From assembly GCA_036986135.1 (NCBI GenBank), contig BTQZ01000001.1, forward strand, positions 171,857 through 235,856: DNA of 64,000 nt, written 5' to 3'. The DNA comes from Anaerolineae bacterium. GTDB lineage: Bacteria > Chloroflexota > Anaerolineae > Anaerolineales > E44-bin32. Below are positions 538-22,305 of the stretch, in pieces. Numbering within the stretch: the stretch's first letter is position 1; each line of letters opens with the position of its first letter. A model generated the notes under the pieces. The model did no database searches. It was given only the letters and a program-made list of their open reading frames with translations, and had not been told where the DNA came from. The translations under genes were made by a program, and so were the position numbers.

Positions 538-1073
538 GCCGTAGGCTCCAGTTGTTTGGCGTATTGGTAGCCTGTTTCGAAGGCCTTCATATTCAGCGGT
601 ATGGTCTTTTCCTTCACCGAACTCTTGATGGTACCTTCCATGGATTCGCGCTGGACCAGGTCGGTCGAAGCGGTAAAGAACCCCAGCATTACAACGTTGG
701 CGACGATGCGACGTCCCAATTCCTCGGCTAACTTAGTGGCGGGGATCATCAGCGGTCGATCATCGTCAAATGGAGTGACCAGATCTTCGTCGATGAGGCA
801 GAGGGCATCCGGCTTGGTTTGCGGTCTGAATTTTGTGTAGGCCTCCTGCGAGAGCGCCACTAGGATGTCGGCCCGTTGGACGAAGGGGAAGTCAATCGGA
901 TAATCGGCGACCACGATGTTGGAGCTCGAGGCTCCCCCGCGGGCCTCCGGCCCGTAGGCCTGCGTCATAACCGCTTCGAGGCCTTGGTGGAGAGACATGC
1001 ACTTTCCCAGGATGTAACCTGCGAGTACGACTCCCTGGCCGCCGAAGCCTGAGATCTTGATTTCTTTTCTCAT
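534..1073 (-). CDS. korC: 2-oxoacid:ferredoxin oxidoreductase gamma subunit
   Basis: 179 aa starting MRKEIKISGFGGQGVVLAGYILG (gamma-subunit GGQG motif). Its ATG at 1073 overlaps the beta-subunit stop (ATGA). The 430-aa track ORF is an upstream over-extension. Confidence 0.85.
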   Translation of the reverse strand: MRKEIKISGFGGQGVVLAGYILGKCMSLHQGLEAVMTQAYGPEARGGASSSNIVVADYPIDFPFVQRADILVALSQEAYTKFRPQTKPDALCLIDEDLVTPFDDDRPLMIPATKLAEELGRRIVANVVMLGFFTASTDLVQRESMEGTIKSSVKEKTIPLNMKAFETGYQYAKQLEPTA

Positions 1074-1900
1074 GAGGCGCCCTCCAGGCGCACGGGACGG
1101 TATGGCGTGAGATCCCGATCGACCATGCGTCCCACGTAGATGGGACGCTCCTCGCGCAGGTCGATCTCCAAGTCGGCCATAGCGACGTTGGGATCGACGA
1201 CGCATCGCTCGCGATACAGCTTCATCTCTGTCACGCCGTCGGGGATGTTGTTTGATTTCCCGAAGCCTATAGGGCAGGGAGCAAGGACCTCTATGAAGGT
1301 GAAGCCCGGCTTGTTGAAGGTGAACAGGATATCCTCCTGGATCTGTCGGATGTGAATGGTCGTCCAGCGGGAGACGAAACTGGCTCCCGCTGCGGCCAGC
1401 AAATAAGGCAGATTGAAGGGCTGTTCCGCGTTTCCATATGGGCTGGTCGTGCTGCGCGCCCCGCACGGGGTGGTAGGTCCGAACTGCCCGCCCGTCATTC
1501 CGTAGTTGAAATTGTTGACGCACACAATCTTGAGGTCGACGTTTCTGCGAGCGGCGTGGATGAGGTGATTGCCGCCGATGGCCGATAGATCTCCATCGCC
1601 GCTGAAAACGGTGACCATCAGATCGGGATTGGCCAGCTTCAGCCCAGTGGCGAAGGGGATGGGGCGTCCGTGGGTAGTGTGGTAAGAGTCGAGATCCATG
1701 TAGCCAGCCACGCGGCCGGTGCATCCGATTCCAGACACCACAATGTGGTTTGCTTCCGGGATGCCGGATTCCAGGATAGCCTTGGCGAAGCAGCGCATCA
1801 CTATTCCGATGCCACAGCCCGGACACCAGATGTGGGGCATGCGATCGTCGCGGATCAGCCTGTCGAGCGGGTGTTCCTTAACGAGTACGGCCGTTGTCAC
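1070..1900 (-). CDS. korB: 2-oxoacid:ferredoxin oxidoreductase beta (TPP-binding) subunit
   Basis: 276 aa with the WCPGCG motif and the TPP loop GDGD..IGGNH. Confidence 0.9.
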   Translation of the reverse strand: MTTAVLVKEHPLDRLIRDDRMPHIWCPGCGIGIVMRCFAKAILESGIPEANHIVVSGIGCTGRVAGYMDLDSYHTTHGRPIPFATGLKLANPDLMVTVFSGDGDLSAIGGNHLIHAARRNVDLKIVCVNNFNYGMTGGQFGPTTPCGARSTTSPYGNAEQPFNLPYLLAAAGASFVSRWTTIHIRQIQEDILFTFNKPGFTFIEVLAPCPIGFGKSNNIPDGVTEMKLYRERCVVDPNVAMADLEIDLREERPIYVGRMVDRDLTPYRPVRLEGAS

Positions 1901-3050
1901 TGGTGGACACCTCCCTGATCGTTTCCAGAATTGGGCCGGGACGCATCATCGCGCCCCCAGCGTGGAATACGCCCTCCACCGGCTGTGAAACGTGCCGCTG
2001 GACTTCGTGCGCCATCTGGCCCAAGTTCATCTCGGCCACCACGAAAGCGTCTGCATCCCGTGCGATCTCTCGAATTAGGCTCTCCGGGAAGGGCCAGAGC
2101 GAGATCAGTCTCAGGAAGCCGGCTGGAATCCCTTCCTGCCGTGCTTCCACGACGGCGCGACGTGCGGATCGTGCCGTGGCACCAAAGGAGATCACTACGA
2201 TCCTGGCGTCATCGAGGTATTGCTCCTCGGTCTTGATCAGGTCGTCCGCGTTTTTGTTGATTTTGTTCACTAGGCGTGTCACAAGACGGTGGTGATTTTC
2301 TGGCGTCAGGTCCGGGTAACCGCGCTCGTCATGTGTGAGACCAGAAATATGGATGTGGTGGCCCTCGCCGGCGTAGGCCATGGGCGGCACGAGATCCGGA
2401 TCGAGCGCCTCGAACGGCTTGAAGGGTCCGTTGGGGGACTTGGAGGGACGCTTGCGTTCCCAGATGGGGATCTCGTCCAGGGTGGGGATGATCACTCGCT
2501 CCACCATGTGACCCACCACCTCGTCCGACATAAGCAGGGCGGGTGTACGGTACCGGTCGGCCACATTGAAACAGTGCACAGTGAGGTCAAAGATCTCCTG
2601 CGGCGACTCGGGAGCGTAGGCCACGATTTCATAGTCGCCATGCGAGCCCCAGCGCGCCTGCATCACGTCCGATTGGCCCGGAGCCGTCGGCAGACCGGTG
2701 GAGGGCGAGCCGCGCTGAATGTTGACCACAACGCAGGGGATCTCCATCATCACACCCAGGCCGATGTTTTCCATCATCAGGCTGAAGCCTGGCCCCGAGG
2801 TGGCGGTCATGGATCTCAAACCGGCTGACGAGGCGCCCAGAATAGCGGCCATGGAGGCCAGCTCATCTTCCATTTGGATGTAGACGCCCTCCACTTCGGG
2901 CATGCGAAGCGAAAGGCGCTCGGCCACCTCGGTGGAGGGTGTGATTGGGTAGCCGGCGAAGAATCGGCAGCCGGCTGCCAGGGCACCCTCGGCGCAGGCG
3001 TGATCGCCGTTCATGAAGTGCTGGCCGGTCAGAATCCGGCGGTCAGCCAT
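1878..3050 (-). CDS. korA: 2-oxoacid:ferredoxin oxidoreductase alpha subunit
   Basis: 390 aa containing GYPITPSTE and ATSGPGFSLM. Confidence 0.9.
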   Translation of the reverse strand: MADRRILTGQHFMNGDHACAEGALAAGCRFFAGYPITPSTEVAERLSLRMPEVEGVYIQMEDELASMAAILGASSAGLRSMTATSGPGFSLMMENIGLGVMMEIPCVVVNIQRGSPSTGLPTAPGQSDVMQARWGSHGDYEIVAYAPESPQEIFDLTVHCFNVADRYRTPALLMSDEVVGHMVERVIIPTLDEIPIWERKRPSKSPNGPFKPFEALDPDLVPPMAYAGEGHHIHISGLTHDERGYPDLTPENHHRLVTRLVNKINKNADDLIKTEEQYLDDARIVVISFGATARSARRAVVEARQEGIPAGFLRLISLWPFPESLIREIARDADAFVVAEMNLGQMAHEVQRHVSQPVEGVFHAGGAMMRPGPILETIREVSTSDNGRTR

Positions 3051-3318
3051 CGGTCACCGCCAGCGTGAAGATGGCGAACTCGGGACAGACCAAGGAGCAG
3101 AATTCGCAGTGCACGCAGCTCTCCTCTTTCCCTGCAACAACATCGGGATAGTGGTAGCCCTTGGCATTGGTCTGGTCCGAGCTATAGAGCACATCCTCCG
3201 GGCAGAACACAATGCACAGCTCACACTCTTTGCAGCGCTCGGGAATGATGTAGACCTTGCCACGCGGCGTCGTGATCGTTTCGAGATCGATCGGAACTCG
3301 TGCAAATACCTGCGTCAC
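3043..3318 (-). CDS. korD: 2-oxoacid:ferredoxin oxidoreductase delta subunit (2x[4Fe-4S] ferredoxin)
   Basis: 91 aa with two clusters, CKECELCIVFCP and CVHCEFCSLVCP. GTG start with GAGGAGGG upstream. The D-A-B-C gene order matches oorDABC/korDABC. Confidence 0.85.
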   Translation of the reverse strand: MTQVFARVPIDLETITTPRGKVYIIPERCKECELCIVFCPEDVLYSSDQTNAKGYHYPDVVAGKEESCVHCEFCSLVCPEFAIFTLAVTDG

Positions 3319-6878: not shown

Positions 6879-8141
6879 TTAGGGGAAGATGCCGCGTCCC
6901 TGATACACGGCCTCGAGACGCGAGAGCGCGATGATGTACGCCGCCGTTCTCCAATCAGTGGGGACCTCTTCAGACTTGTCTTTCACGCGACCATAGGCCT
7001 TCATCAGCATCTTATGCAGCTTGCGGTCCACCTCTTCCAGGTCCCAGAATTCGCTGCGCTTGTTCTGCAGCCACTCAAAGTAGCTGACGATCACTCCGCC
7101 CGCATTGCAGAGAACATCCGGGATCACGTGGATATCTCGGTCCTGTAGTATCGTGTCGCCGTCGGTGTCGGTGGGGCCGTTCGCTCCCTCCGCCACGAGC
7201 TTCACGTTCAACAGTGGCGCCGTATCTGCCGTGATCTGACTCGCCAGAGCTGCTGGAACGAAAATGTCTGCCTGCGTTCCCAAAAAAGCTTCGTGGTCCA
7301 CTGGCGAGGCGCCTGCAAAGCCGCTCAATCCTTGGTGAGACTGCGCATACTCGAACAGCTCCGCGGGGTCAATTCCCTTCGGATTGAAAATGGCCCCGGA
7401 GGCATCTTCCACTGCAATCAGCGTTGCTCCGAACGGCTTCAACAGGCGAGCCGTCCAGGAGCCCACGTTTCCAAACCCCTGTACGAAGTAAGTCGCTTTG
7501 CTCAGGTCGAAACCGTGATTGCTGGCCCAGCGTTCGATCAGGAAGACAACGCCTTGACCGGTGGCCTTATCCCGTCCCGCGCTGCCACCTAGGTCGACCG
7601 GCTTCCCGGTCACAACGTGGTAGGAACATTGTCGTTCATTGGGCGGAATGGTGGAGATGTAGGTATCCAGGATCCAGGCCATGATCTGGGCGTTGGTGTT
7701 CATGTCTGGCGCGGGGATATCGAACTCCGGCCCGATGTTGCTGCCCAGCGCGAAGGTGAAGCGGCGCGTGATTCGTTCAATTTCGGATCGCGAGTACCGC
7801 TTGGGATCGAACTGGATGCCGCCCTTGGCACCGCCAAGTGGCAGACCGGCAATCGCGGTCTTCCAGGTCATCCAGGTCGCCAATGCCCGCACCTCGTCGA
7901 TGTCCATCGCCGGGTGAAAGCGAAGCCCGCCTTTGAACGGCCCCAGCACGTTGTTGTGCTGGACGCGGTAGGCGGTAAACATCTCTACGCGGCCGTCGTC
8001 CATGATGGCCGGGAAGTTCACCACGATCTCGTTCATGGGCTTCTCAAGAATCTTCCGCACATCCGGATCGAGGTTCATGAGATCGGCAGCCTTCTTGAAC
8101 TGCCTGCCGACGTTCTCGTATACTCTGGAGCCGTTCGTCAT
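6879..8141 (-). CDS. gdhA: Glutamate dehydrogenase (Glu/Leu/Phe/Val dehydrogenase family)
   Basis: 420 aa with the catalytic motif LPLGGAKGGI and the Rossmann motif GFGNVG. Confidence 0.9.
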   Translation of the reverse strand: MTNGSRVYENVGRQFKKAADLMNLDPDVRKILEKPMNEIVVNFPAIMDDGRVEMFTAYRVQHNNVLGPFKGGLRFHPAMDIDEVRALATWMTWKTAIAGLPLGGAKGGIQFDPKRYSRSEIERITRRFTFALGSNIGPEFDIPAPDMNTNAQIMAWILDTYISTIPPNERQCSYHVVTGKPVDLGGSAGRDKATGQGVVFLIERWASNHGFDLSKATYFVQGFGNVGSWTARLLKPFGATLIAVEDASGAIFNPKGIDPAELFEYAQSHQGLSGFAGASPVDHEAFLGTQADIFVPAALASQITADTAPLLNVKLVAEGANGPTDTDGDTILQDRDIHVIPDVLCNAGGVIVSYFEWLQNKRSEFWDLEEVDRKLHKMLMKAYGRVKDKSEEVPTDWRTAAYIIALSRLEAVYQGRGIFP

Positions 8142-11815: not shown

Positions 11816-11963
11816 AAGTGTTTTCGTTGAGGACTTTGACGGCGACGTCGCGATTCATCTCGGGATCGTGGGCTTGACCGACCGTGCCGGTGCCTCCCCT
11901 GCCCAACTCAGCCTCGAGCCGATAGCGATCGTTGAGTCCCGCACCTGAGGGGAACTGGGTCAT
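11784..11963 (-). pseudogene. Remnant of a paralogous Ser/Thr kinase N-lobe (59-codon ORF)
   Basis: Translates as MTQFPSGAGLNDRYRLEAELGRGGTGTVGQAHDPEMNRDVAVKVLNENTYDKYFRANCT*. About 25 of 38 residues match the N-terminus of the adjacent kinase. The ATG overlaps the phosphatase stop (ATGA at 11960-11963), and the 3' end overlaps the kinase start out of frame. Confidence 0.55.
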
Positions 11964-13222: not shown

Positions 13223-13523
13223 GTGTTCTACCGAGCAGAAAATGATGCCTGGGCCCCAAGCATCATTGTTGCTGACAACGTTGATAACACCGAACTGGAT
13301 AATGGGAGCTTATCACCGTCCTCTTCGAGATCGTCTAACCTCCGAAAGGAGAGTTGAAATCGTGTCAACGCCCTTCTCCACATCCAGAATAGACGGGAAG
13401 CTCACCGAATCTGTCCTCTTCGACGGTGCTCTTCTTTACTACAATCATGACGCGCGAAAACGCATCCTTGTCTCGGCACCAAAGAGTAGTCATCTCACTC
13501 GTATTATCACATAGGGAACTGAA

Positions 13524-15050
13524 TTGGCGCGCTTGCACGAATATCAAGGAAAGGCGCTTCTCAAGGCGCTCAAGATCGCCGTCCCGAAGGGAGAGCCCGC
13601 CCGGAGCCCCGATGAAGCGCGAGCAATCACCGAGGAATTGGCATGCCCGGTAGCAGTGAAGGGCCAGGCATGGGTAACTGGCCGCGCCGGGTACGGCGCG
13701 ATTCGCTTCGCTAAGACGCCCCAAGAAGCAGGTGAGGCGGCCACCGCAATCCTCGGAATGCAGATCGATGGTTTCCAGGTAGATACAGTGCTGGTCGAAG
13801 AGAAGCTCGACGTCGAAAGGGAATTCTATGCCGGGCTGATCATCGACGACCGTTGCCAGGCGCCGGTGTTGATCTTCAGTAGCCAGGGTGGAAGCGGGAT
13901 CGAGGAAATCGCACGCGAGCATCCCGAATCCATCGCCCGGGAAGTCATCGATGTTCGCCGCGGCTTGTCCGAATATCGGGCACGTGACCTCATCCGCCAG
14001 GTCGATCTGCACGGGAAGCTTCAGGCCGGCCTGGGCCGCATGGTAAGCCAACTCTACCAAGTTGCCCGGCGCTATGATGCGCGCGCGGCTGAGATCAACC
14101 CCATCGTGCTCACCACGGAGGGTGCGCTCTACGCGGCAGATTGCCGTATCACCGTGGACGACAACGCGGTTTACCGTCACCCGGATCTCGGAATTGAGGT
14201 CGCCCGCGAATTCGACAGGCCTGCCTCGCGCCTCGAAACCATCGCGTGGCAGGTGGAAAAGGACGACTATCGCGGAACCTTTTATTTCATCCAGCTCGAG
14301 CACGATTTCGAAGGTGGAGAGGGAGTGATTGGTTTTCATGGCGCCGGCGGTGGAGGCTCAATGATGAGCATGGATGCCGTGCTGAACCGCGGCTACCGGC
14401 TGGCAAATTTCGTGGACACAAGCGGGAACCCGCCGGCCTCCAAGGTATACCGCGCGGCGCGAATTGTGCTGGCTCAGGAAGGAATCGATGGGTATTTTGC
14501 CTCCGGCTCAGGAGTGGCTTCACAAGAGCAATTTCACAGTGCGCGCGGGCTTGTCAAAGCCTTCATGGAAGTTCCGCTGAGGGTGCCGGCTGTGATCCGA
14601 CTGGGCGGCAACGCCGAAGACCGAGCGATCGCGATCCTGGAGCGAGCGCGTGACGAGATTCCAGCACCGGTCGAGGGCTACGGCAAGGATGATGCCCCCG
14701 AATTCTGTGCCGAGAGACTTGATTATTTAGTCCGAAACCTCGAGCCGCGTGCTGAGAAACATGACGGCTGGAGCCGATCCGAGCCCCGGCAGCCGTACAG
14801 CTTTGGGACGGTGACCGGCGGCGAGGTGACGCTCGACCATCGAGCCTGCCAAGATTGCGCGTCCAAGATCTGTATTGAAACCTGCGTGCCCGGAATCCTC
14901 GAGTTGCAGGGTGGTCTCCCGGTCCTGAATATCACGCCGGAGGAGGCCCAGAAGGGTGGTTGTAGCGAGTGCCTGGCCTGTGAAATTGAATGCTTCTTCG
15001 AAGGCAACCGCGGCGGGTATGTCAGTCTGCCGATTGCAGGGCTCGATTGA
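13524..15050 (+). CDS. SucC/CcsA-like ATP-grasp CoA ligase beta-type subunit with a C-terminal 2x[4Fe-4S] ferredoxin-like domain
   Basis: TTG start. The N-terminus [13 protein letters not shown] matches the SucC N-terminus. The C-terminal 80 aa carry [15 protein letters not shown] and [11 protein letters not shown]. Confidence 0.75.
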
Positions 15051-15163
15051 TCCGAGGCTTCGGATGAGTGTCCCCAAGCAGTTCCCGGCAACCGGCGCAT
15101 GCCATGTCACCAGGCTCATAACTGAAACACAGAGATCCGAATTTGGCAGACGCAGAGGTCTGA

Positions 15164-16075
15164 ATGGCCGTCCTGATTAACGAGACCAAGCGGGTGCTGG
15201 TGCAAGGCATCACCGGTCGTGAGGGAAGCGCGCGCGCGCATTTGATGAAGGAATATGGAACCCAGGTAGTGGCTGGCGTGACGCCAGGGAAGGGCGGCAA
15301 AGACGTCGTTGGAATTCCGGTATTCGATACCGTCTTGGAGGCCATCGAGCGGGCCGGACCGATCGACGTCAGCGTGCTATTCATTCCCGCGCCATTGGTA
15401 AAGGGAGCGGCTCTGGAAGCGATCGATGGCGGGGTCAAGCTGCTCATTATCGTCCCGGATCGCGTACCGATCTACGATGTGCTGGAAATTGCCGAGGCCG
15501 CCAAGCGAACGGGAGCGCGATTCGTTGGTCCGAATACCCTTGGGGTACTCTCCCCGGACAGAGCGGTGCTGGGAATGATCGGTGGACGAGCAAGCTCTGC
15601 AAGATCCTGGTTCTTCCCTGGGCCGGTCGGCATCGCCTCGCGCTCTGGTGGGATCACGTCCTCGATGGCTTACTACCTGGGCCAGGCAGGGATCGGCGCT
15701 ACGACCCTTCTGCACGTGGGCGGGGATCCGGTGGTTGGGACGCCGCTTCCGGACGCTGCCGAGCTCTTTGAAGGGGATCCGGATACCAAGGCCATCGTGA
15801 TGTTCGGCGAGATAGGCAGCAGCCAGGAGGAACGGGTTGCTGACCTTGTAGAATCGGGAGCAGTGACTAAGCCGATCGTGGCGTACATCGGTGGGAAAGC
15901 AGCCAAGAGCGGGACTCGATTCAGCCACGCCGGCGCGATTGTCGAGGGCAGCCGCGGTACATATGAGGGCAAGGTGAAACGCCTGCGAGAAGTGGGTGTG
16001 ACGATCGTGGAAGCGTTTGGGGAACTACCGCAGGTGACGGCAAATGTAATGAAAGAGCATGGGATCCATCAATGA
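15164..16075 (+). CDS. SucD/CcsB-like CoA-binding alpha-type subunit
   Basis: 303 aa with [17 protein letters not shown] and the phosphohistidine loop SHAGAIV. Confidence 0.8.
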
Positions 16076-16851
16076 GTGAATCTAGCTGGAAGACCTCTAT
16101 TACCGAGATCAAGCCCAATGAAGTGCGATTGCGGGGCTACTTGATCGATGAGTTGATGGGCCGGGTCAGCTTCGGCCAAGCGGTACACCTCGCGCTGAAG
16201 GGCGAGCTCCCAACATCGGAGGTCGGGAAATTGCTGGATGCGATCCTGGTCTGCTCCATCGACCATGGCGCCTCGCCGCCATCCGCTTTGGCGGCGAGAA
16301 CGGCCGCCTCCACCGGAGCGCCGCTAAATGCTGCTGTGGCCGCCGGCCTGCTCTCGATCAACCGCTACCACGGAGGAGCGATCGAGGATTGCATGGCGGT
16401 GCTAGAGACAGGAATTGAACGCGCAAGAGAGGCCGGAAGCCAGCTCTCAGAAGTCGCCGGAGAGCTCGTGCAAGAGCATCGCGCGGCCAAGAAACGGATC
16501 CCCGGGCTGGGCCATCGGATTCATGCCAAAGACCCGCGTACTGGCAAGCTCTTCGCGCTGGCCCATGAAGCCGGAATTGCGGGTCAGGGCGTGGAAATGA
16601 TCCGGGCTCTCCGGGAGGCGATGGCAGCTGACGGGAAGGAGCTGCCGATCAATGTGGATGGCGCGATCGCGGCGCTGCTCATAGACATGGAGATCCCGCG
16701 TAAGCTTGGCAACGCATTCTTTATGATGGCGAGGGTCCCGGGCTTGGTGGCACAAGTTCATGAGGAGCAAAGCCGCGAGCGTCCCATGCGCCGGATCCAT
16801 CCCACAGATCACATCTATGACGGCCCCGATGCCAGGTCGTTGACGGAGTGA
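16072..16851 (+). CDS. Citryl-CoA lyase-like protein (short citrate-synthase-fold protein)
   Basis: 259 aa with HGASPPS, INRYHGGA and GLGHRIHAKDPR. Overlaps the upstream gene by 4 nt. Confidence 0.7.
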   Translation: MSESSWKTSITEIKPNEVRLRGYLIDELMGRVSFGQAVHLALKGELPTSEVGKLLDAILVCSIDHGASPPSALAARTAASTGAPLNAAVAAGLLSINRYHGGAIEDCMAVLETGIERAREAGSQLSEVAGELVQEHRAAKKRIPGLGHRIHAKDPRTGKLFALAHEAGIAGQGVEMIRALREAMAADGKELPINVDGAIAALLIDMEIPRKLGNAFFMMARVPGLVAQVHEEQSRERPMRRIHPTDHIYDGPDARSLTE

Positions 16852-16858
16852 GGCAAGC

Positions 16859-17401
16859 ATGTCAGAAGAATTAATGGAACTGATCCCCGAGTTTCGTCTG
16901 ATCCAAGACCGCGACCTCCGTCAAAGGACACTGGCAGTGTGGCAGGAGGCGATGGAGATCGGGGGCTGGTCTGCAGATGACCTGCGCCGGATGCCTTATA
17001 CGCTGCTGGTTGAAGGGGTGGACATCCCCTTTCCCCAACACGTCAGCGTCGTCTGTCGTCTGTGCGTCGCCATGCTTGACATTCTTCTGGAAGACTATGG
17101 CGATCGGTATGAGATCGACCGCGACACCCTGATCGCAGGCGCACTGCTTGCGGATGTCGGCAAGCTGATTGAATTCCGCGAGCAGGACGGCGAATACCAG
17201 TGGGCGAGCATGTACAAGTACCTGCGACACCCATTCACCGGCGTGGGGCTGTGCTTCAAGCATGACATACCTGAAGCCGTGATGCATGTGGTCGCTACCC
17301 ATTCATGGGAGGGGGACAAGTTCAAGCGACGACCGGAGTCCATCATTTTTCATCACGCCGACTTTACCGATTTCGATCTCACGAAGTTCGCGAGCAGCTG
17401 A
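16859..17401 (+). CDS. HD-domain-like protein with a degenerate metal motif
   Basis: 180 aa. GALLADVGK occupies the position where HD proteins carry GxLLHDIGK. Confidence 0.5.
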
Positions 17402-17403
17402 GC

Positions 17404-18660
17404 ATGGGACAGACATTCGCTGAGAAGGTTCTAGCCAAGAAGGCGGGCGTGGAGGCGACCTCCCCCGGAGAGATCGTCGAGATTTCGCCTGACGTCGCCC
17501 TATCCCACGACAACACGGCGCCAATACGAGGGATATTCGAGGAGATGGGCGGGGTCAGGGTGCATGATCCTGAGATGCATGCCATCTTCTTGGACCATGC
17601 CGCGCCGGCGCCAACCACGCAGCACGCTGAGAACCATCGCATTATTCGTGAATTCGTGCGCGATCAGGGTATCCCGCACTTCTTCGACGTGGGACGCGGC
17701 ATTTGCCACCAGGTCCTGGTTGAAGAGGGATTGGCGCTGCCGGGGGAAGTGGTGCTCGGATCCGATTCGCACACCCCGCATGCGGGCGTGATGGGGGCCT
17801 TCGGCGCGGGAATCGGCCGCAGCGAGATGGCATCCGTATGGGCATTGGGGAGTCTGTGGCTGCGAATCCCAGAAAGTCTACAGATTATCGTCCACGGGGA
17901 GCTTCCGCCTGGAGTTACAGCCAAAGATCTTGCGCTTCACGTCATTGGTGATCTGGGCGCGGATGGCGCGCTATACATGTCGGTCGAGTGGCATGGAGAT
18001 GCGATCCGACGGCTGGGTTTGAGCGAGCGGGCGGTGCTGCCCAACATCTCAGCGGAGATGGGCGCCAAGAACAGCTACCTCCCTCCGGACGAGCTGGTCT
18101 TCGACTATCTCGAGCGCCGAGCCCAAAGGGCATATGAAGCCGTATTCCCGGATCCTGACGCCGAGTATGCCAGGAAGGTCGAATATGAGGCTGATACGTT
18201 GGAAGCTATGGTTGCCTGTCCACACACGGTGGATCACGTGAAGCCGCTGTCCGAGGTTGCAGGCACGCGCGTGGATCAGGCGTTTATCGGCACCTGCTCC
18301 AATGGCCGCTTGGAGGACTTGGCGTCCGCGGCCGAGGTGCTGGCCGATCGACAAGTAGCCAATGGCACCCGCCTGATCGTGATCCCGGCCTCATCTGAAG
18401 TATTCAAGCAGGCCTTGGGCGCGGGCTACATCGATGTCTTCCTACAGGCTGGCGCACTGCTTCAGAGCCCCGGCTGTGGGCCCTGCATGGGGAATCACAT
18501 GGGCGTGCCGGCAGTCGGTGAAGCCACCATCAGCACCGCCAATCGCAATTTCAAGGGGCGCATGGGCACCAAGGAGAGCGAAATCTATCTGGCCAATCCG
18601 TCGGTGGTCGCCGCTTCGGCGGTGGCAGGCGAAATCTGCAGCGCGAACGATTTGAATTAG
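17404..18660 (+). CDS. Aconitase-superfamily hydro-lyase large subunit (archaeal-type LeuC/HacA, 418 aa)
   Basis: Start chosen at [15 protein letters not shown]. Motifs GSDSHT, GTCSNGR and CGPCMG (FeS ligands). The track start at 17305 overlaps the previous gene. Confidence 0.85.
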
Positions 18661-18674
18661 GAGACCTGAGCGAG

Positions 18675-19175
18675 ATGAGCATCATCAACGGGCGCGTTTG
18701 GAAATACGGAGATAGCGTAAACACCGACGTCATCTTCCCCGGCAAGTACACCTACACTGTCAGCGATCCGGCCGATATGCCACAGCATGCGCTGGAGGAT
18801 TTGGATCCGTGCTTTGCCGCGGAGGTGCGGCCGGGCGACATCATCGTCGCCGGGAAGAACTGGGGCTGCGGCTCATCCCGCGAGCAGGCGGTGACCTGCT
18901 TGAAGGAGAGCGGGGTGGGCGCCATCGTAGCCGAGTCCTTCGCTCGCATTTACTACCGTAACTGCCTGAATGCGGCCCTGCCGGCGCTGACCTGTGCCGA
19001 GGCGGTTGAGAACATCGAAGACGGACAGCAGATCGAAATTGATCTGGAAGCCGGCGAGATTCGCAGTTCCGAAGGCACCTTCTCGTTTCCGCCGCTTCCG
19101 GAAGCGGTGATGGGGATCTTTGCGGCCGGAGGTCTGGTGCCCTACACGCGACAGCGTATCCGAAAGGGGAAGTGA
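18675..19175 (+). CDS. Aconitase-superfamily hydro-lyase small subunit (LeuD/HacB type)
   Basis: 166 aa with [13 protein letters not shown]. The substrate loop reads PGKYTYTV. Confidence 0.85.
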
Positions 19176-20287
19176 TGTATCGAATAGCCTGGATGCCCGG
19201 CGATGGCATCGGCGCGGAGGTCATGGAAGCAGCCAGGATCGTCCTGGATCGCTTGGAGCTGGAGGCGGAATACGTGCCGGCCGATATCGGGTGGGAGTTC
19301 TGGTGCACCGAAGGAGACCCGCTGCCCGAGCGCACGATCGAGATCCTGAAGACCTGCACTTGCGGTCTCTTCGGCGCTATCACTTCTAAACCTAAAGAGG
19401 AAGCCGCCAAGGAACTTGCCACTGAGCTACAAGGCAAGGGCCTGAGCTACCGCAGCCCGATCGTGCGGCTGCGCCAACACTTCGATCTCTATACCAACTT
19501 GCGGCCCTGCAAGGCTTATCCTGGAAACCCGCTCAACTACCGCGATGATGTCGATCTCATCGTGTTCCGCGAGAACACCGAAGGACTCTACAGTGGGATC
19601 GAGTTCCATCCCCTTCCTGACGAGGTCCGGCGCGTGATGGCGAAGCACAACCCCGCCATGGCTCGCTTCGATGGAGTGGCGGGCGATGAGATGGCCGTGA
19701 GCCTACGGGTGATTACCAACGTGGGCGCGCGGCGGATCATCAAGAAGGCGTTCGAGTATGCGCGGGATTTCGGCTACCCCACCGTCACTCTGGTAGAGAA
19801 GCCCAATGTGCTGCGCGAGACCAGCGGGCTCATGCGGAGGGCGGCCGCATCCGTTGCGAAGGAATTCCCCACCATTGAACTCTGGGAAACCAACATCGAT
19901 GCCCAGATGATGTGGCTGTTGAAGAACCCGGATGATTACGGCGTGATGGTAACCAGCAACATGTTCGGCGACATCCTTTCCGATCTGTCAGCCCAGTTGG
20001 TAGGGGGTCTGGGCTTCGCCTCAAGCGGAAATATCGGCGATGAGTTTGCGGTTTTTGAGCCAACCCATGGTTCCGCGCCCAAATATGCCGGCCAATACAA
20101 GGTCAACCCGACCGCCATGCTGCTGGCGGCAAAGCTGATGCTCGAATGGCTAGGCGAGCGCGGGAAGGCCGAGGCGCTTGATGCTGGGATGGCGGCCGTG
20201 ATCCATGAGGGTAAAGTACGTACCTACGATATGGGCGGTGACAGCTCGACCCTCGAGATGGCCCAGGCGGTAGCTGACCGCCTCTAA
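19172..20287 (+). CDS. Beta-decarboxylating dehydrogenase (isocitrate/homoisocitrate/isopropylmalate dehydrogenase family)
   Basis: 371 aa with [31 protein letters not shown] and NMFGDILSD. The start is either GTG at 19172 or ATG at 19175, overlapping the upstream stop. Confidence 0.85.
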
Positions 20288-20373
20288 GCATTCCCGTCCT
20301 ACAGTCGGGGACCGCCTGCTTCGGTAAGCGGGATGCTCGCGGGGCTTGGCTCGATATCAATGAGGATCAATAA

Positions 20374-21750
20374 ATGAGTTCGATCAGCCATCAAATGGCA
20401 GAGTTCGCGCACGCGCTGCGCTACGAAGACATCCCCGCGGTAGCTATTCACGAAGCCAAGCGCTTCTTGCTTGACAGTGTTGGATGCGCCCTGGCCGCGG
20501 TGGACAATGACGACATGCAGGCCATGCACCGGTTTACAGAGAAGCTGGGGGGCACTCCGGAGGCGACCGTCATAGGAAGCGGGCTGCAGACGAATGCACC
20601 CAGTGCGGCATTGATGAATTGCCTGCTGGTCCGTGCTCTGGATTACAACGATATCTACTGGGTTCAGGATCCCAGTCATCCCTCCGACATCATCGGAGTC
20701 GCGCTGGCGGTGGCGGAGGCGAACCAGAAGAGCACCGTTGAGGCAATAGTGGCCATCGTGATCGCATATGAGCTGGAGATGCGATGGTGCCATGCTGCCG
20801 AGCCAGGCATCCGGGAGGTGGGATGGCACCATGCCTCGCTGACGCAGTTCGTGAGCCCGCTGGTCGCGGGTCGGCTCTATGATCTCGACCTGGATCAGCT
20901 TGTGGCGGCGGTTGGAATCAGCGGCAGCAGCCACTTTACTCTCGGCGGAGTGGTTGCGGGTCACCTGACGAACATGAAAAACACTGCCGATCCCCTGGCG
21001 GCACAGGCCGGCGTGCTTGCTGCGCTCATGGCGCGGGAAGGCTGCAGTGGACCGGTGGAGGTGATCGAGGGGAAGGAAGGGCTGATCGAAGTTCTGTCCA
21101 ACGTGGAATGGCTGGAGCAGGAACTGACGAAGGGGCTGGGATCGGATTTCCTGATCACGAACTGCAGCTACAAGGCCTTCCCAACCGAAGCTCTCACGCA
21201 CCAGCCGATCAGCGCCGCGCTGGCAGTGTGCCGTGATCACGGCATTGCTCACGATCAGGTGGCTGAGCTGCTGGTGGAGACCACTACTCGTGGCGCCGAT
21301 ATCCTCTCCGATCCGAGCAAGTACAAGCCAGAGACGAAAGAGACCGCAGACCACAGCCTCCCGTACGTAATCGCGGCCGCGGTCGTGGACGGAAACGTCC
21401 TGCCAGAAAGCTTCAGCGTAGAAAAGCTGAAGGACCCACGAATCCGAGAGCTGCTTCCGAAGATCAAGGTGGTCGCCGATTCTGAGATTGACGACCTCTT
21501 CCCAAAGATCAAACGCGCCCGCGTGACGATCACAACCACCGACGGCCAGAGTCACACTGCGCAGACGGATGTCGCAAAGGGCGATCCAGCAGATCCCATG
21601 AGTGACGAGGATATCGAGGCCAAATTCCGGGACAATGCGCATGGAGTTCTAGGCTCCGCGCGGATGGATGAAGTGATTGAAGCGACCTGGCAGCTCGATG
21701 GCCTAGCCGGCATGCGCGAATATCTAGGGCTTCTCACATCCGACATCTAA
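20374..21750 (+). CDS. MmgE/PrpD-family dehydratase
   Basis: 458 aa. The overall PrpD-like sequence starts MAEFAHALRYEDIP. The antisense 447-aa ORF on the opposite strand is treated as an artefact. Confidence 0.8.
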   Translation: MSSISHQMAEFAHALRYEDIPAVAIHEAKRFLLDSVGCALAAVDNDDMQAMHRFTEKLGGTPEATVIGSGLQTNAPSAALMNCLLVRALDYNDIYWVQDPSHPSDIIGVALAVAEANQKSTVEAIVAIVIAYELEMRWCHAAEPGIREVGWHHASLTQFVSPLVAGRLYDLDLDQLVAAVGISGSSHFTLGGVVAGHLTNMKNTADPLAAQAGVLAALMAREGCSGPVEVIEGKEGLIEVLSNVEWLEQELTKGLGSDFLITNCSYKAFPTEALTHQPISAALAVCRDHGIAHDQVAELLVETTTRGADILSDPSKYKPETKETADHSLPYVIAAAVVDGNVLPESFSVEKLKDPRIRELLPKIKVVADSEIDDLFPKIKRARVTITTTDGQSHTAQTDVAKGDPADPMSDEDIEAKFRDNAHGVLGSARMDEVIEATWQLDGLAGMREYLGLLTSDI

Positions 21751-21870
21751 ACCGGGGCCAGAATCGATCGCTACCGGCTGAGACCCTCCGCGGGCGCGTA
21801 GGTGAAATTAGAATACCGAACGACCCGCAGGGGTTCGCGCGCCGGACTCCGGACTTGACCCAGGCGTGAT

Positions 21871-22305
21871 ATGACGAATCAGGAACACTACCGAAAACTG
21901 GAGCGGATGTACCTGCGCGCGCGTGTAAATGAGTATTTCGCGCCGACCGTTCAGATTGGCGAGGGGAAGGCGGAGGTCGGCATCGAAGTCCGGCCCGATT
22001 TCTTCCACGCCGCTAATGCGGTGCACGGGTATCTATACTTCAAGGTGCTGGATGACTCAACGTTCTTCGCCGTGAACTCGCTCGTAGAGGACGTCTTCGT
22101 TCTCACGGTTTCGTTCAATCTGCACTTCACTCGCCCGGTCACCAAAGGAGTTCTGAAGGCGACCGCCGAGGTCGTACACCGGTCAAAGCGACTCTTCATC
22201 GCCGAAGGAGTAGCGATGGACTCGCACGGGAGAGTAGTCGGTCGCGGCACCGGCACCTTCATGCGCAGCGACATACTATTGACGCCGGGAACGGGCTATG
22301 AGTAG
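21871..22305 (+). CDS. PaaI/4HBT-type hotdog thioesterase
   Basis: 144 aa with an N-x-x-x-HG motif (ANAVHGY) and hotdog-like length. Confidence 0.65.
   Translation: MTNQEHYRKLERMYLRARVNEYFAPTVQIGEGKAEVGIEVRPDFFHAANAVHGYLYFKVLDDSTFFAVNSLVEDVFVLTVSFNLHFTRPVTKGVLKATAEVVHRSKRLFIAEGVAMDSHGRVVGRGTGTFMRSDILLTPGTGYE

What the first reader, a model, noticed from the sequence alone, without database searches (positions are those of the whole stretch)
13524..22305. Eight-gene operon-like cluster joining citryl-CoA synthetase/lyase-like genes to a homoaconitase-type hydro-lyase, an IDH/HICDH-type dehydrogenase, PrpD and a thioesterase
All eight genes are co-directional and tightly spaced or overlapping. 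In order they are:
- a SucC-like ligase subunit;
- a SucD-like subunit with the phosphohistidine loop SHAGAIV;
- a 259-aa citrate-synthase-fold protein the size of citryl-CoA lyase (4-nt overlap with the previous gene);
- an HD-like protein;
- an archaeal-type LeuC/HacA plus LeuD/HacB pair;
- a beta-decarboxylating dehydrogenase (overlapping start);
- an MmgE/PrpD dehydratase;
- a PaaI hotdog thioesterase.
Established knowledge: CcsAB plus Ccl perform two-step ATP-dependent citrate cleavage in the reductive TCA cycle of Hydrogenobacter-type organisms. HacAB/LeuCD with HICDH/IPMDH run 2-oxoacid chain elongation. PrpD dehydrates 2-methylcitrate. I do not know a textbook pathway that puts all of these in one operon. 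The dehydrogenase lacks the LeuB-type GAVGGPKW signature. It has [10 protein letters not shown]...[21 protein letters not shown] instead, which from memory is closer to isocitrate/homoisocitrate dehydrogenases. Two hypotheses follow. (a) It is a reductive-TCA module running 2-oxoglutarate to isocitrate to citrate to acetyl-CoA plus oxaloacetate, with LeuCD-like/PrpD standing in for aconitase; the OorDABC-type oxidoreductase lies 10 kb upstream. (b) It makes or cleaves a substituted tricarboxylate (homocitrate, methylcitrate or citramalate type) through a CoA-ester intermediate, with PrpD supplying the dehydration that homoaconitases do not perform.
Basis: partly seen in the sequence, partly recalled or inferred. 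Interest (0 to 1): 0.7.

Follow-up and report, generated by a model that had tools for sequence, protein, structure and literature searches.

The report
Unusual tricarboxylic-acid gene cluster in Anaerolineae
A conserved operon-like cluster in Anaerolineae bacteria joins a two-enzyme, ATP-citrate-lyase-like system to lysine-pathway-type homoaconitase and dehydrogenase genes plus an extra dehydratase; it most likely acts as a non-standard link between acetyl-CoA, citrate and 2-oxoglutarate, though a homocitrate role cannot be excluded.

Summary
Nine co-directional genes lie at 13524-22305, tightly spaced. The core is conserved: A-B-C occur together in 56 of 61 related genomes that could be judged. 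D-E-F-G follow in two deep Anaerolineae clades and partly in a KSB1 genome.

- **A/B/C** is an ATP-citrate-lyase-like unit. C is a citryl-CoA-lyase family member. A/B derives from succinyl-CoA synthetase, but A carries an ACL/CCS-type citrate-binding domain. A also has a new, invariant 8-Cys Fe-S tail. In four genomes B and C are fused.
- **E/F** are co-orthologues of the homoaconitase found in LysW/homocitrate-synthase lysine clusters. They show no sign of changed specificity.
- **G** is a distinct NADP-type dehydrogenase subfamily that also occurs in one such lysine cluster.
- **H** (PrpD-like, not a true PrpD) and a second LeuCD-like pair are mutually exclusive. This points to a separate first-half dehydratase.
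- **The thioesterase** is not conserved.

Best reading (about 0.45): acetyl-CoA + oxaloacetate ⇌ citrate ⇌ isocitrate ⇌ 2-oxoglutarate, run by recruited enzymes. Rivals are two separate modules (ACL plus 2-oxoadipate synthesis), or a homocitrate-synthase-independent route to 2-oxoadipate.

The chain length of the substrate could not be settled in silico. I found no published description of this cluster.

The parts
13524..15050 (+). A: ligase beta subunit (ADP-forming type, SucC-like ATP-grasp) with an ACL/CCS-type citrate-binding C-domain
   Evidence: Pfam ATP-grasp_2 plus Citrate_bind (28 bits, above the gathering cut-off), and no Ligase_CoA hit. A control Thermus SucC gives Ligase_CoA. The C-domain alone hits CcsA 6HXQ_B best and shares its RPxxxxE / DDxRG / GGGGS / GNPPAxKxY motifs. 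The whole protein is closest to Thermus SCS beta. It scores below the SucC equivalog cut-off (255 vs 370).
14736..15050 (+). C-terminal Cys-rich (2x[4Fe-4S]-like) tail of A
   Evidence: Cys442, 445, 450, 454, 480, 483, 486 and 490 (and C395) are 100% conserved in 81 sequences. Pfam gives only a weak Fer4_9/Fer4_7 hit. The AF2 model has pLDDT 78-88 here, and no PDB SCS/ACL structure covers it. Only 114 relatives exist among 1.84 billion representative proteins; they include stand-alone 85-113 aa proteins with the same 8-Cys pattern.
15164..16075 (+). B: ligase alpha subunit (SucD-like, phosphohistidine loop SHAGAIV)
   Evidence: Pfam CoA_binding plus Ligase_CoA. The SucD equivalog scores 288, below its 336 cut-off. 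PDB ranking: archaeal/Thermus SucD 245-278 bits, CcsB 180, AclA 120. B is fused to C in L023, L034, L077 and L079.
16072..16851 (+). C: citryl-CoA-lyase family protein (citrate-synthase fold)
   Evidence: NF004869 scores 262 against a cut-off of 212, and NF004866 scores 256 against 245. It gives 191 bits to H. thermophilus CCL 6HXP. The HGG, GHR, DPR, NVDG, RxPG and ERP motifs are kept and invariant in 58 orthologues.
16859..17401 (+). D: small HD-superfamily protein of unknown role; always the first gene of the D-G(H) block
   Evidence: Weak hits only: HD 18.6 bits and HDIG 23.8 bits. An orthologue profile hits only the HD domain of YhaM, at E = 0.011. The 'HD' histidine is Ala in clade 1 and KSB1 but intact in clade 2. 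D is present in 37 loci and never in ABC-only loci.
17404..18660 (+). E: homoaconitase-type large subunit (aconitase family)
   Evidence: hacA_fam scores 517 bits. E is 58-61% identical to the HacA of LysW/HCS lysine clusters, and those HacA sequences nest inside the E clade. Only 6 conservative fixed differences separate the two groups.
18675..19175 (+). F: homoaconitase-type small subunit; specificity loop PGKYTYT
   Evidence: LEUD_arch scores 183 bits. The loop is invariant in 26 orthologues. The identical loop occurs in the AAA-cluster HacB of L089. AAA HacB nests inside the F clade.
19172..20287 (+). G: NADP-type beta-decarboxylating dehydrogenase of a distinct subfamily (sister to the HICDH/AksF group)
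   Evidence: All catalytic residues are kept. The loop Y-x-S-P-I-V matches AksF/HICDH (E. coli IDH Asn115 is Ile here). G has an E. coli-IDH-like clasp insertion and the motif [16 protein letters not shown]. A 69%-identical G-type gene closes a LysW-LysX-HCS-HacA-HacB cluster in L129.
20374..21750 (+). H: MmgE/PrpD-family protein, not a PrpD equivalog; candidate first-half dehydratase
   Evidence: It scores only 95 bits against PrpD models with cut-offs of 458-950. The closest PDB entries are IRG1/CAD and IDS epimerase, at about 100 bits. H is present in all clade-1 loci with enough flank and in KSB1. It is absent where the second LeuCD-like pair E'F' is present.
21871..22305 (+). I: PaaI-like hotdog thioesterase; not a conserved member of the cluster
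   Evidence: 4HBT and TIGR00369 hits. It is found only in the window and its 94%-identical relative L001.
534..3318 (-). Context: four-subunit 2-oxoacid:ferredoxin oxidoreductase (delta, alpha, beta, gamma)
   Evidence: In many clade-1 loci this block lies directly and divergently upstream of A, together with HdrA-like, CCG-domain and EtfAB genes.
6879..8141 (-). Context: glutamate dehydrogenase
   Evidence: Pfam ELFV_dehydrog and NCBIfam GdhA-like at 446 bits. Its position near the cluster is not conserved in other loci.

Best explanation
The cluster encodes a non-canonical link between acetyl-CoA + oxaloacetate and 2-oxoglutarate.

**Proposed steps**
- **A/B:** an SCS-derived, ADP-forming ligase whose beta subunit has an ACL/CCS-type acid-binding domain and an Fe-S tail.
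- **C:** a citryl-CoA lyase. Together A/B/C interconvert citrate + ATP + CoA with acetyl-CoA + oxaloacetate, as a two-enzyme ATP-citrate lyase.
- **H:** the PrpD-like protein interconverts citrate and cis-aconitate. In the second Anaerolineae clade a divergent LeuCD-like pair, E'F', does this instead.
- **E/F:** the homoaconitase-type hydro-lyase interconverts cis-aconitate and isocitrate. As in Thermus, this type is taken to perform only the second half-reaction.
- **G:** interconverts isocitrate and 2-oxoglutarate with NADP(H).
- E/F/G were recruited from the lysine (AAA) pathway and probably still accept the homocitrate series.
- Direction is not fixed by sequence. It could be oxidative with ATP gain, or reductive from glutamate/2-oxoglutarate to acetyl-CoA.

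**Shown versus inferred**
- Shown: family memberships, conserved synteny, B-C fusions, and the H versus E'F' exclusivity.
- Inferred: the substrates, the absence of canonical aconitase and IDH in these genomes, and the roles of D and of the Fe-S tail.
For: **C**
- Meets the citryl-CoA-lyase cut-offs and keeps all catalytic and oxaloacetate-binding residues.

**A**
- Has Pfam Citrate_bind where a control SucC has Ligase_CoA.
- Shares CcsA-specific motifs.

**A-B-C as a unit**
- A-B-C co-occur in 56 of 61 loci.
- B and C are fused as in ACL alpha in 4 loci.
- A, B and C show no fixed differences between ABC-only and extended clusters. That implies one function everywhere.

**Operon structure and spread**
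- Gaps C-D and D-E are 7 and 2 nt.
- The ABC + D-G adjacency is conserved in two deep clades and in a KSB1 genome.

**First-half dehydratase**
- H and E'F' are mutually exclusive. LysW/HCS clusters contain neither.
- Thermoflexus hugenholtzii has a canonical aconitase, a citrate synthase and its own AAA cluster (PMC8129789 supplement). A related Thermoflexus MAG (L042) has A-B-C only.

**Context**
- A 2-oxoacid:ferredoxin oxidoreductase lies divergently adjacent in clade 1.
- lpdA, lipB and nuo genes flank the KSB1 cluster.

**From memory**
- Thermus HICDH and T. kodakarensis TK0280 use isocitrate well.
Against: - E/F are indistinguishable from AAA homoaconitases. They have the same PGKYTYT loop and only conservative differences. 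No homoaconitase of this type is known to me to hydrate cis-aconitate.
- G has the HICDH/AksF substrate loop rather than the Ser-x-Asn of isocitrate dehydrogenases. From memory, AksF does not use isocitrate.
- A G-type gene sits in a LysW-HCS cluster.
- A and B are overall closer to SucCD than to CcsAB.
- The absence of canonical aconitase and IDH in these genomes could not be checked.
- The KSB1 cluster lacks E/F.
Confidence: 0.45

Rival explanations
1. Two separate modules that merely share an operon. A/B/C is an ATP-citrate-lyase-like system. D-E-F-G-H is the upper lysine (alpha-aminoadipate) pathway: homocitrate to cis-homoaconitate (H or E'F'), to homoisocitrate (E/F), to 2-oxoadipate (G). 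Homocitrate synthase and lysWXYZJK lie elsewhere in the genome.
For: - Each enzyme would keep the function of its closest relatives.
- E/F nest with HacAB of LysW/HCS clusters.
- A G-type dehydrogenase closes such a cluster in L129.
- A/B/C are unchanged between contexts and occur alone in 13 loci.
- H would fill the homocitrate-dehydratase step that Thermus-type homoaconitase lacks (from memory: Jia et al. 2006).
Against: - There is no metabolic reason for co-transcribing the two modules. Yet the adjacency is kept with 2-7 nt gaps across two deep clades and in another phylum.
- No HCS or LysW gene lies in any of the 80 loci or in the window.
- AAA clusters elsewhere keep HCS next to HacA and need no H.
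Confidence: 0.28
2. A homocitrate-synthase-independent route to 2-oxoadipate. C condenses acetyl-CoA with 2-oxoglutarate to homocitryl-CoA. A/B release homocitrate with ATP gain. H performs a PrpD-type syn-dehydration, needed because a citrate-synthase-fold enzyme gives the 'wrong' stereoisomer. E/F and G then finish. The pathway could also run in reverse, as ATP-dependent homocitrate cleavage.
For: - In gene order, A-B-C-D occupies the position that HCS holds in LysW clusters: HCS-HacA-HacB-DH versus ABCD-E-F-G.
- The trio of a CS-fold enzyme, a PrpD-family enzyme and an aconitase-family enzyme mirrors the 2-methylcitrate cycle (established knowledge).
- E/F/G have the AAA-type specificity features.
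- A's acid-binding loop (GSGVASQEQ) differs from those of ACLY and CcsA (the ACLY sequence is from memory).
Against: - Every characterised citrate-synthase-fold enzyme uses oxaloacetate.
- C keeps the same binding residues as H. thermophilus CCL.
- A/B/C show no substitutions specific to extended clusters.
- A/B/C also occur alone. This includes the genus Thermoflexus, whose type strain has its own HCS.
Confidence: 0.12
3. Part of an autotrophic reductive TCA cycle. A/B/C would be the citrate-cleaving step and G the carboxylating step.
For: - A CCS/CCL-like unit is present.
- A 2-oxoacid:ferredoxin oxidoreductase lies nearby.
- G has an NADP-type cofactor site.
Against: - No other rTCA marker was seen in 64 kb of window or in 80 loci.
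- Surveys of rTCA genomes do not list Anaerolineae for CCS/CCL (PMC9802188; PMC13147460).
- From memory, cultured Anaerolineae are fermentative heterotrophs.
- ABC-only genomes such as Thermoflexus are proteolytic heterotrophs (PMC8129789).
Confidence: 0.07
4. A/B is simply the organism's succinyl-CoA synthetase, and the rest are leucine or other branched-chain biosynthesis genes.
For: - A's ATP-grasp domain and B are most similar to SucC and SucD.
- JGI annotates A as the SCS beta subunit.
Against: - Both subunits score below the SucC and SucD equivalog cut-offs.
- A has no Ligase_CoA domain and has lost the SucC NIFGGI motif.
- A/B are constantly linked to, and sometimes fused with, a CCL.
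- E/F/G group with the homoaconitase/HICDH lineage, not with LeuCD/LeuB.
Confidence: 0.05

Closest known systems
Citryl-CoA synthetase (CcsAB) plus citryl-CoA lyase (Ccl) of Hydrogenobacter thermophilus
   Same: - The split is the same: a SucCD-like ligase plus a roughly 260-aa citrate-synthase-fold lyase.
- C gives 191 bits to Ccl (6HXP) and keeps the catalytic residues.
- A's C-domain shares CcsA motifs and the ACL-type citrate-binding domain.
   Different: - A and B are closer to bona fide SCS subunits than to CcsA/CcsB. This suggests an independent recruitment from SCS.
- A carries an extra Fe-S tail.
- The hosts are heterotrophic Chloroflexota.
- The partner genes are homoaconitase/HICDH-type rather than aconitase/ICDH.
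Heteromeric ATP-citrate lyase (AclBA) of Chlorobium and similar organisms
   Same: In L023, L034, L077 and L079 the SucD-like and CCL-like parts form one 588-aa protein next to A. This is the AclB + AclA architecture.
   Different: - Sequence similarity to AclA and AclB is low, at 88-120 bits.
- In the window the genes are separate, overlapping by 4 nt.
Upper alpha-aminoadipate lysine pathway (HCS-HacA-HacB-HICDH in LysW clusters of Thermus, Chloroflexota and CPR bacteria)
   Same: - E/F are co-orthologues of the HacAB found in such clusters.
- The gene order HacA-HacB-dehydrogenase is the same.
- G-type enzymes occur in such a cluster.
-.
   Different: - No homocitrate synthase and no LysW genes are present here.
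- A CCS/CCL unit, an HD protein and a PrpD-like protein are added.
- G is only 39-43% identical to the usual Chloroflexota HICDH.
2-Methylcitrate cycle (PrpC-PrpD-aconitase)
   Same: The logic is the same: a citrate-synthase-fold enzyme, then a PrpD-family dehydratase for the first half-reaction, then an aconitase-family hydratase for the second.
   Different: - H is not a PrpD equivalog (95 bits against cut-offs of 458-950).
- There is no PrpB lyase.
- A beta-decarboxylating dehydrogenase follows. It could not oxidise 2-methylisocitrate, which is a tertiary alcohol.
Methanogen 2-oxoacid elongation enzymes (AksD/E homoaconitase, AksF)
   Same: - G's substrate loop Y-x-S-P-I-[IV] matches that of M. 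jannaschii AksF.
- E/F/G score best against the archaeal hacA/LEUD_arch/AksF2 models.
   Different: - All scores fall below the equivalog cut-offs.
- G is NADP-type and has two insertions.
- F's loop is YTYT, not YLRT.

Membership tests
Citryl-CoA lyase (citrate-synthase-fold, Ccl) | Scores above the curated family cut-off | tested here: met
   NF004869 scores 262.4 against a cut-off of 212, and NF004866 scores 256.4 against 245. The score is below the H. thermophilus-type equivalog NF004864 (212.7 against 261).
Citryl-CoA lyase (citrate-synthase-fold, Ccl) | Catalytic His/His/Asp and the three oxaloacetate-binding Arg of citrate synthase | tested here: met
   The HGG, GHR, NVDG, DPR, RxPG and ERP motifs align with 6HXP and are invariant in 58 orthologues. 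The mapping to pig CS numbering is from memory.
Citryl-CoA lyase (citrate-synthase-fold, Ccl) | Cleaves citryl-CoA to acetyl-CoA + oxaloacetate | not testable with these tools
   Needs an enzyme assay.
Citryl-CoA synthetase (CcsAB) | Two-subunit SucCD-like ligase with a phosphohistidine loop, genetically linked to Ccl | tested here: met
   B-C fusions.
Citryl-CoA synthetase (CcsAB) | ACL/CCS-type citrate-binding domain in the beta subunit | tested here: met
   PF16114 scores 27.7-28.9 bits against a gathering cut-off of 26.8 in three diverse A orthologues. The control Thermus SucC hits PF00549 instead. CcsA is the best PDB hit for the C-domain alone, but only marginally (47.2 vs 46.4 bits).
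Citryl-CoA synthetase (CcsAB) | Closest characterised relatives are CcsA and CcsB | tested here: not met
   A: Thermus SucC 235 bits, CcsA 125 bits; Foldseek TM 0.90 vs 0.72. B: SucD 245-278 bits, CcsB 180 bits.
Succinyl-CoA synthetase (SucCD) | Scores above the SucC and SucD equivalog cut-offs | tested here: not met
   A scores 255.4 against 370. B scores 288.4 against 336.
Succinyl-CoA synthetase (SucCD) | Ligase_CoA domain and the GNGAGL / NIFGGI loops in the beta subunit | tested here: not met
   No PF00549 hit in A. The loops read GAGGGGS and ASGSGVAS instead.
ATP-citrate lyase (AclBA) | SucD-like and CCL-like parts in one polypeptide | tested here: not met
   The genes are separate in the window, with a 4-nt overlap. 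They are fused in four related loci.
AAA-pathway homoaconitase (LysT/LysU-type HacAB) | Two-subunit aconitase-family enzyme orthologous to the HacAB of LysW/HCS clusters | tested here: met
   58-61% identity. AAA HacA and HacB nest inside the E and F clades. The PGKYTYT loop is identical. Fixed differences number 6 (E) and 3 (F), all conservative.
AAA-pathway homoaconitase (LysT/LysU-type HacAB) | Encoded with homocitrate synthase and LysW genes | tested here: not met
   No HCS or LysW/X/Y/Z/J/K hit in the window or in the 80 loci.
Homoisocitrate dehydrogenase | HICDH/AksF-type substrate loop and a place in an AAA cluster | tested here: inconclusive
   The loop Y-x-S-P-I-V is shared with AksF and with AAA-cluster HICDHs. 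A 69%-identical G-type gene sits in a LysW-HCS cluster. The window's own copy is not in such a cluster. G forms its own clade, 39-43% identical to the usual Chloroflexota HICDH.
Isocitrate dehydrogenase (E. coli type) | Ser113 and Asn115, which bind the gamma-carboxylate | tested here: not met
   The Ser is kept (S95) but Asn115 is Ile97, invariant in 26 orthologues.
Isocitrate dehydrogenase (E. coli type) | NADP-binding Lys344/Tyr345/Val351 and the clasp insertion | tested here: met
   [16 protein letters not shown] aligns with THGTAPKYAGQDKVNP. An insertion of the same length follows GIEF (GIEW in E. coli). The roles of these residues are from memory.
2-Methylcitrate dehydratase PrpD | Scores above the PrpD equivalog cut-offs | tested here: not met
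   94.7-95 bits against cut-offs of 575 and 950, and 74 bits against 458. PDB PrpDs score 51-61 bits, against about 100 for IRG1 and IDS epimerase.
cis-Aconitate decarboxylase (IRG1/CAD) | Close similarity to CAD and a context of itaconate metabolism | tested here: not met
   About 100 bits and roughly 25% identity only. No itaconyl-CoA hydratase or similar gene is present. Replacement of H by an aconitase-family pair points to a (de)hydratase role.
HD-domain phosphohydrolases | The H...HD...D metal-binding motif | tested here: inconclusive
   Scores fall below the Pfam and TIGR cut-offs. The motif's His is Ala in the window and intact in clade 2.
Reductive TCA cycle | A full set: citrate cleavage, 2-oxoglutarate synthase, fumarate reductase, pyruvate synthase | not testable with these tools
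   Only 64 kb of a 307-kb contig is visible.

The most novel reading that the evidence does not exclude
The cluster is a self-contained, homocitrate-synthase-independent and ATP-conserving 2-oxoacid elongation pathway. A citrate-synthase-fold lyase/synthase plus an SCS-derived ligase would make (homo)citrate through the CoA ester. A PrpD-like enzyme, or a specialised second aconitase-family pair, would be the long-sought dehydratase for the first half-reaction that Thermus-type homoaconitases cannot perform. The ligase's Fe-S tail would couple the pathway to the cell's redox state.
Probability: 0.15. Interest if true: 0.85.

Novelty: new variant of a known kind. Interest (0 to 1): 0.62.

Why it matters
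- **Abundance.** Anaerolineae are among the most abundant bacteria in digesters, sediments and hot-spring mats. Automated annotation calls these genes 'succinyl-CoA synthetase', 'citrate synthase', 'LeuCD', 'IDH' and '2-methylcitrate dehydratase'. Metabolic reconstructions therefore silently misread this locus.
- **If the best reading is right,** a widespread lineage runs the citrate-to-2-oxoglutarate segment with recruited lysine-pathway enzymes. It would also use an ATP-citrate-lyase-like system that arose independently from SCS and carries an Fe-S domain. That bears on how the TCA cycle was assembled by enzyme recruitment, and on ATP conservation in fermenters.
- **If a rival is right,** the PrpD-like protein or the E'F' pair identifies a candidate for the unassigned homocitrate dehydratase step of bacterial lysine biosynthesis.
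- **Either way,** the exclusive H versus E'F' pattern and the B-C fusions give testable assignments.

Tried and rejected
**Hypotheses rejected**
- *Itaconate route* (H as cis-aconitate decarboxylase, A/B activating itaconate, C cleaving citramalyl-CoA). No itaconyl-CoA hydratase is present, E/F/G would have no role, and H is replaceable by an aconitase-family pair.
- *2-Methylcitrate cycle.* There is no PrpB, and a dehydrogenase cannot oxidise 2-methylisocitrate.
- *Citramalate/isoleucine route.* C keeps all three oxaloacetate-binding arginines, and E/F/G are homoaconitase/HICDH-type rather than LeuCD/LeuB-type.

**Searches that led nowhere**
- Riboswitch or other RNA clue upstream of A: no Rfam hit in the window or in 13150-13600.
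- Sigma-70 promoter scan: none found.
- Single-sequence AlphaFold of D: pLDDT 45, unusable.
- PDB profile search for D: only a generic HD-domain hit.
- Literature searches for CCS/CCL in Chloroflexi or Anaerolineae, and for this gene combination: no description found. The Thermus and methanogen homoaconitase papers are not held.
- Attempt to link AAA-cluster contigs and ABC-cluster contigs to the same genomes: no organism names returned.
- The T. hugenholtzii KO table is truncated before the genes of interest.
- The search with H as query returned only close Anaerolineales orthologues, so it gave no distant contexts.

Full report
**1. Observation**

ORF listing and family scans confirm nine co-directional genes between 13524 and 22305. 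I label them A to I.

- A: SucC-like, 508 aa.
- B: SucD-like, with the loop SHAGAIV.
- C: a 259-aa citrate-synthase-fold protein that overlaps B by 4 nt.
- D: a weak HD-like protein.
- E/F: an archaeal-type HacA/LeuC plus HacB/LeuD pair.
- G: an Iso_dh dehydrogenase that overlaps F by 4 nt.
- H: an MmgE/PrpD protein.
- I: a hotdog thioesterase.

E's homology-supported start is Met34 at 17404, 2 nt after D's stop. No terminator-like site on the + strand lies inside the cluster.

The window comes from an Anaerolineae MAG. H is 100% identical to an NCBI protein on a 307-kb contig, and locus L001 is 94% identical.

**2. Conservation**

A scan of one genome per GTDB species returned 80 loci, mostly Anaerolineae/Chloroflexota. 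Mapping the window's proteins onto them gave the following.

- Of 61 loci with at least 2.5 kb after A, 56 have B and C.
- Of 45 loci with at least 8 kb after A, 29 also have D, 23 have E plus G, 13 are A-B-C only, and 3 have A alone.

Two architectures exist.

- Clade 1 (A at least 67% identical to the window's): A-B-C-D-E-F-G-H.
- Clade 2: A-B-C-D-E'-F'-E-F-G. E'F' is a second, divergent LeuCD-like pair, 36-44% identical to E/F. There is no H.

H and E'F' never co-occur. The apparent exception in L073 is a LEU2-type LeuC lying 4 kb upstream.

A KSB1 genome (L073) has A-B-C-D-G-H, flanked by lpdA, lipB and nuo genes. Unrelated genes have been inserted into the cluster in several loci without breaking its order. 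The thioesterase I occurs only in the window and L001.

**3. The A-B-C unit**

*C.* C passes two NCBIfam citryl-CoA-lyase cut-offs. It gives 191 bits to the H. thermophilus CCL structure 6HXP. It keeps the catalytic and oxaloacetate-binding motifs, which are invariant in 58 orthologues.

*A and B.* These are more ambiguous.
- Over full length, both are closest to genuine SCS subunits. A scores 235 bits to Thermus SucC against 125 to CcsA. B scores 245-278 bits to SucD against 180 to CcsB. Foldseek gives TM 0.90 against 0.72.
- Both fall below the SucC and SucD equivalog cut-offs.
- A's C-terminal domain is not SucC-like.
  - It hits Pfam 'ATP citrate lyase citrate-binding' above the gathering score in three diverse orthologues. 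A control Thermus SucC hits Ligase_CoA instead.
  - It has replaced the SucC GNGAGL and NIFGGI loops.
  - It shares with CcsA an inserted RPxxxxE...DDxRG segment, GGGGS and GNPPAxKxY.

*Fusions and uniformity.*
- In four loci B and C form a single 588-aa protein, which is the AclA architecture.
- A, B and C have no residues that distinguish extended clusters from ABC-only loci, so the unit has one function everywhere.

I conclude that A/B/C is an ATP-citrate-lyase-like system. Its ligase was recruited from the SCS lineage independently of the Aquificae CCS.

**4. The Fe-S tail of A**

- All 81 A sequences end in a roughly 80-aa domain with eight invariant cysteines, in the pattern CX2CX4CX3C...CX2CX2CX3C.
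- Generic ferredoxin models barely detect it.
- It is modelled with pLDDT 78-88, and no solved SCS, CCS or ACL structure has it.
- Only 114 relatives exist among 1.84 billion representative proteins. They include stand-alone 85-113 aa proteins with the same pattern.
- Its role is unknown. Redox regulation or electron transfer are guesses.

**5. E/F**

The specificity loop of F, PGKYTY(T/S), is invariant in its 26 orthologues. It differs from methanogen HACN (YLRT), IPMI (YLVY) and Pyrococcus (YNLT).

The key result came from tracing relatives of the dehydrogenase. That led to Chloroflexota LysW clusters arranged as LysW-X-Y-Z-J-HCS-HacA-HacB-HICDH-LysK (L087, L089, L090).
- Their HacA and HacB are 58-61% identical to E and F.
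- They nest inside the E and F clades in NJ trees.
- One carries the identical PGKYTYT loop.
- They differ from 30 cluster E and 26 cluster F sequences at only 6 and 3 conserved positions, all conservative.

A metagenome scan seeded with that HacA returned 80 loci. About 50 carry HCS and/or LysW-pathway genes next to HacA; the others are short contigs or HacA-only hits. None contains A, B, C, D or H.

E/F are therefore co-orthologues of the mainstream bacterial AAA homoaconitase.

**6. G**

- G keeps every catalytic residue of the family.
- Its substrate loop, Y-x-S-P-I-V, is that of M. jannaschii AksF. I confirmed the AksF sequence as a 100% match.
- The same loop occurs in HICDHs that sit in CPR and Chloroflexota LysW-HCS clusters. 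It is not the Ser-x-Asn of isocitrate dehydrogenases: E. coli Asn115 is Ile97 here.
- G also has an E. coli-IDH-like clasp insertion and the NADP signature [16 protein letters not shown]. It has a unique 12-aa insertion just before the substrate loop.
- It forms its own clade, sister to the HICDH/AksF group.
- A 69%-identical G-type enzyme with all these features closes a cluster LysW-LysX-HCS-HacA-...-HacB in L129. So the IDH-like features do not by themselves argue for isocitrate.

**7. H, E'F', D**

- H is an MmgE/PrpD-family protein, but it scores far below the PrpD equivalogs. It is nearer to IRG1 and IDS epimerase, at about 100 bits. The family-wide carboxylate-binding residues are kept (residue list from memory).
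- H is mutually exclusive with E'F'. Both are absent from LysW clusters. This suggests they supply the same step, most simply the tertiary-alcohol dehydration (citrate or homocitrate to the cis-alkene). From memory (Jia et al. 2006), Thermus-type homoaconitase does not perform that step.
- E'F' fall into two separate groups, with loops YLPLT and YLHIT.
- D is a conserved HD-superfamily protein. Its canonical His is Ala in clade 1. I cannot assign it a role.

**8. Context**

- The window carries a four-subunit 2-oxoacid:ferredoxin oxidoreductase (534-3318) and a glutamate dehydrogenase (6879-8141) upstream.
- In many clade-1 loci the oxidoreductase lies directly and divergently next to A, together with HdrA-like, CCG-domain and EtfAB genes.
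- The rest of the window is unrelated housekeeping.
- In Thermoflexus hugenholtzii the published KO table lists a canonical aconitase, a citrate synthase and a complete LysW-HCS-HacAB cluster (PMC8129789 supplement). A Thermoflexus MAG (L042) has A-B-C only.

**9. Synthesis**

Two modules, each unchanged relative to its relatives elsewhere, are welded into one operon-like unit. One is a citrate-type ACL-like unit. The other is an AAA-type homoaconitase/dehydrogenase set with an added dehydratase.

*Best reading (about 0.45).* The AAA-type enzymes, together with H or E'F', stand in for aconitase and IDH. The cluster then runs acetyl-CoA + oxaloacetate ⇌ citrate ⇌ isocitrate ⇌ 2-oxoglutarate, and possibly also handles the homocitrate series.
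- It gives every conserved gene except D a role.
- It explains the conserved co-transcription and the transfer of the unit into KSB1.
- It explains why H or E'F' appear only here: presumably no canonical aconitase exists in these genomes. Without H plus E/F, the citrate handled by A/B/C would then be a dead end.
- It rests on enzyme promiscuity. That is known to me for HICDHs but not for this type of homoaconitase. It also rests on an unverified absence of canonical genes.

*Rivals.*
- Two independent modules: ACL plus the upper AAA pathway (about 0.28).
- An HCS-independent route to 2-oxoadipate, in which A/B/C act on 2-oxoglutarate/homocitrate (about 0.12). The gene-order displacement of HCS by A-B-C-D and the analogy to the methylcitrate cycle make it attractive. 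The unchanged A/B/C and the oxaloacetate rule of the citrate-synthase fold argue against it.
- An autotrophic rTCA role, or a plain SCS role, are unlikely.

**10. Literature and limits**

Full-text searches found no paper describing this gene combination or CCS/CCL in Anaerolineae. Absence from the searchable library is not proof of novelty.

Substrate assignments are inferences.

Noticed in passing
L023, L034, L077, L079 (e.g. L079:11652-13418): In these Aggregatilineales/Anaerolineae genomes the SucD-like and CCL-like genes are one 588-aa ORF next to A. This natural fusion reproduces the ATP-citrate-lyase alpha subunit.
   Followed up: yes
window 14736-15050; P0391, P0400, P0403, P0410: The 8-Cys tail of A belongs to a rare domain family: 114 relatives among 1.84 billion representative proteins. 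The family also exists as stand-alone 85-113 aa proteins of unknown function.
   Followed up: partly
L016, L018, L021, L027, L038: Five loci carry an A orthologue (66-69% identical, full length including the Fe-S tail) with no B or C within the available flank.
   Followed up: no
L082-L086 (CPR/Roizmanbacteria metagenome contigs): Candidate-phyla-radiation bacteria carry a compact LysW-LysX-LysY-HCS-HacA-HacB-HICDH-LysZ-LysJ lysine cluster. Its HICDH has an NADP-type 'KY' signature.
   Followed up: partly
L087:8708-9451, L088:3481-4224; L129:9215-10425: Chloroflexota AAA clusters have extra genes wedged between HacA and HacB: a methyltransferase in L087 and L088, and an unknown 187-aa ORF plus a NUDIX hydrolase in L129.
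   Followed up: no
L116 (LysW-X-Y-Z-J-HCS-HacA, then 10 kb without HacB or HICDH): Some LysW clusters contain HacA but no small subunit or dehydrogenase within 10 kb. These genes must be encoded elsewhere in those genomes.
   Followed up: no
clade-1 loci, e.g. L004, L008, L009, L015, L017, upstream of A (minus strand): A conserved divergent block holds a 2-oxoacid:ferredoxin oxidoreductase, a 1139-aa HdrA-like protein, a CCG-domain Fe-S protein and EtfAB. It looks like an electron-bifurcation-type module next to the cluster.
   Followed up: partly
L022:3559-4098: The D orthologue in this locus contains an in-frame stop codon. It is either a pseudogene or an assembly error.
   Followed up: no
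window 22413-24272 (+): A 619-aa protein fuses an N-terminal DsbA/thioredoxin-like domain to an NhaA Na+/H+ antiporter. It lies directly downstream of the cluster and is conserved in L001.
   Followed up: partly
window 8261-11815 (-) and 11960-13222 (-): A 1184-aa Ser/Thr kinase-AAA-TPR protein and a GAF-SpoIIE/PP2C phosphatase lie immediately and divergently upstream of A. The phosphatase recurs only in the close relative L001, so it is probably not a conserved regulator of the cluster.
   Followed up: partly
window 30408-32894 (+): An 828-aa fusion of an alpha/beta-hydrolase domain with an AMP-binding (acyl-CoA-synthetase-like) enzyme.
   Followed up: no
window 58530-60026 (-): Selenocysteine synthase SelA is encoded, so the organism probably makes selenoproteins.
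   Followed up: no
L039:11072-11593, and the equivalent gene in L029 and L051: In three clade-2 loci a hexapeptide-repeat (gamma-carbonic-anhydrase/PaaY-like) gene follows G. It sits where the window has H and the PaaI-like thioesterase.
   Followed up: no
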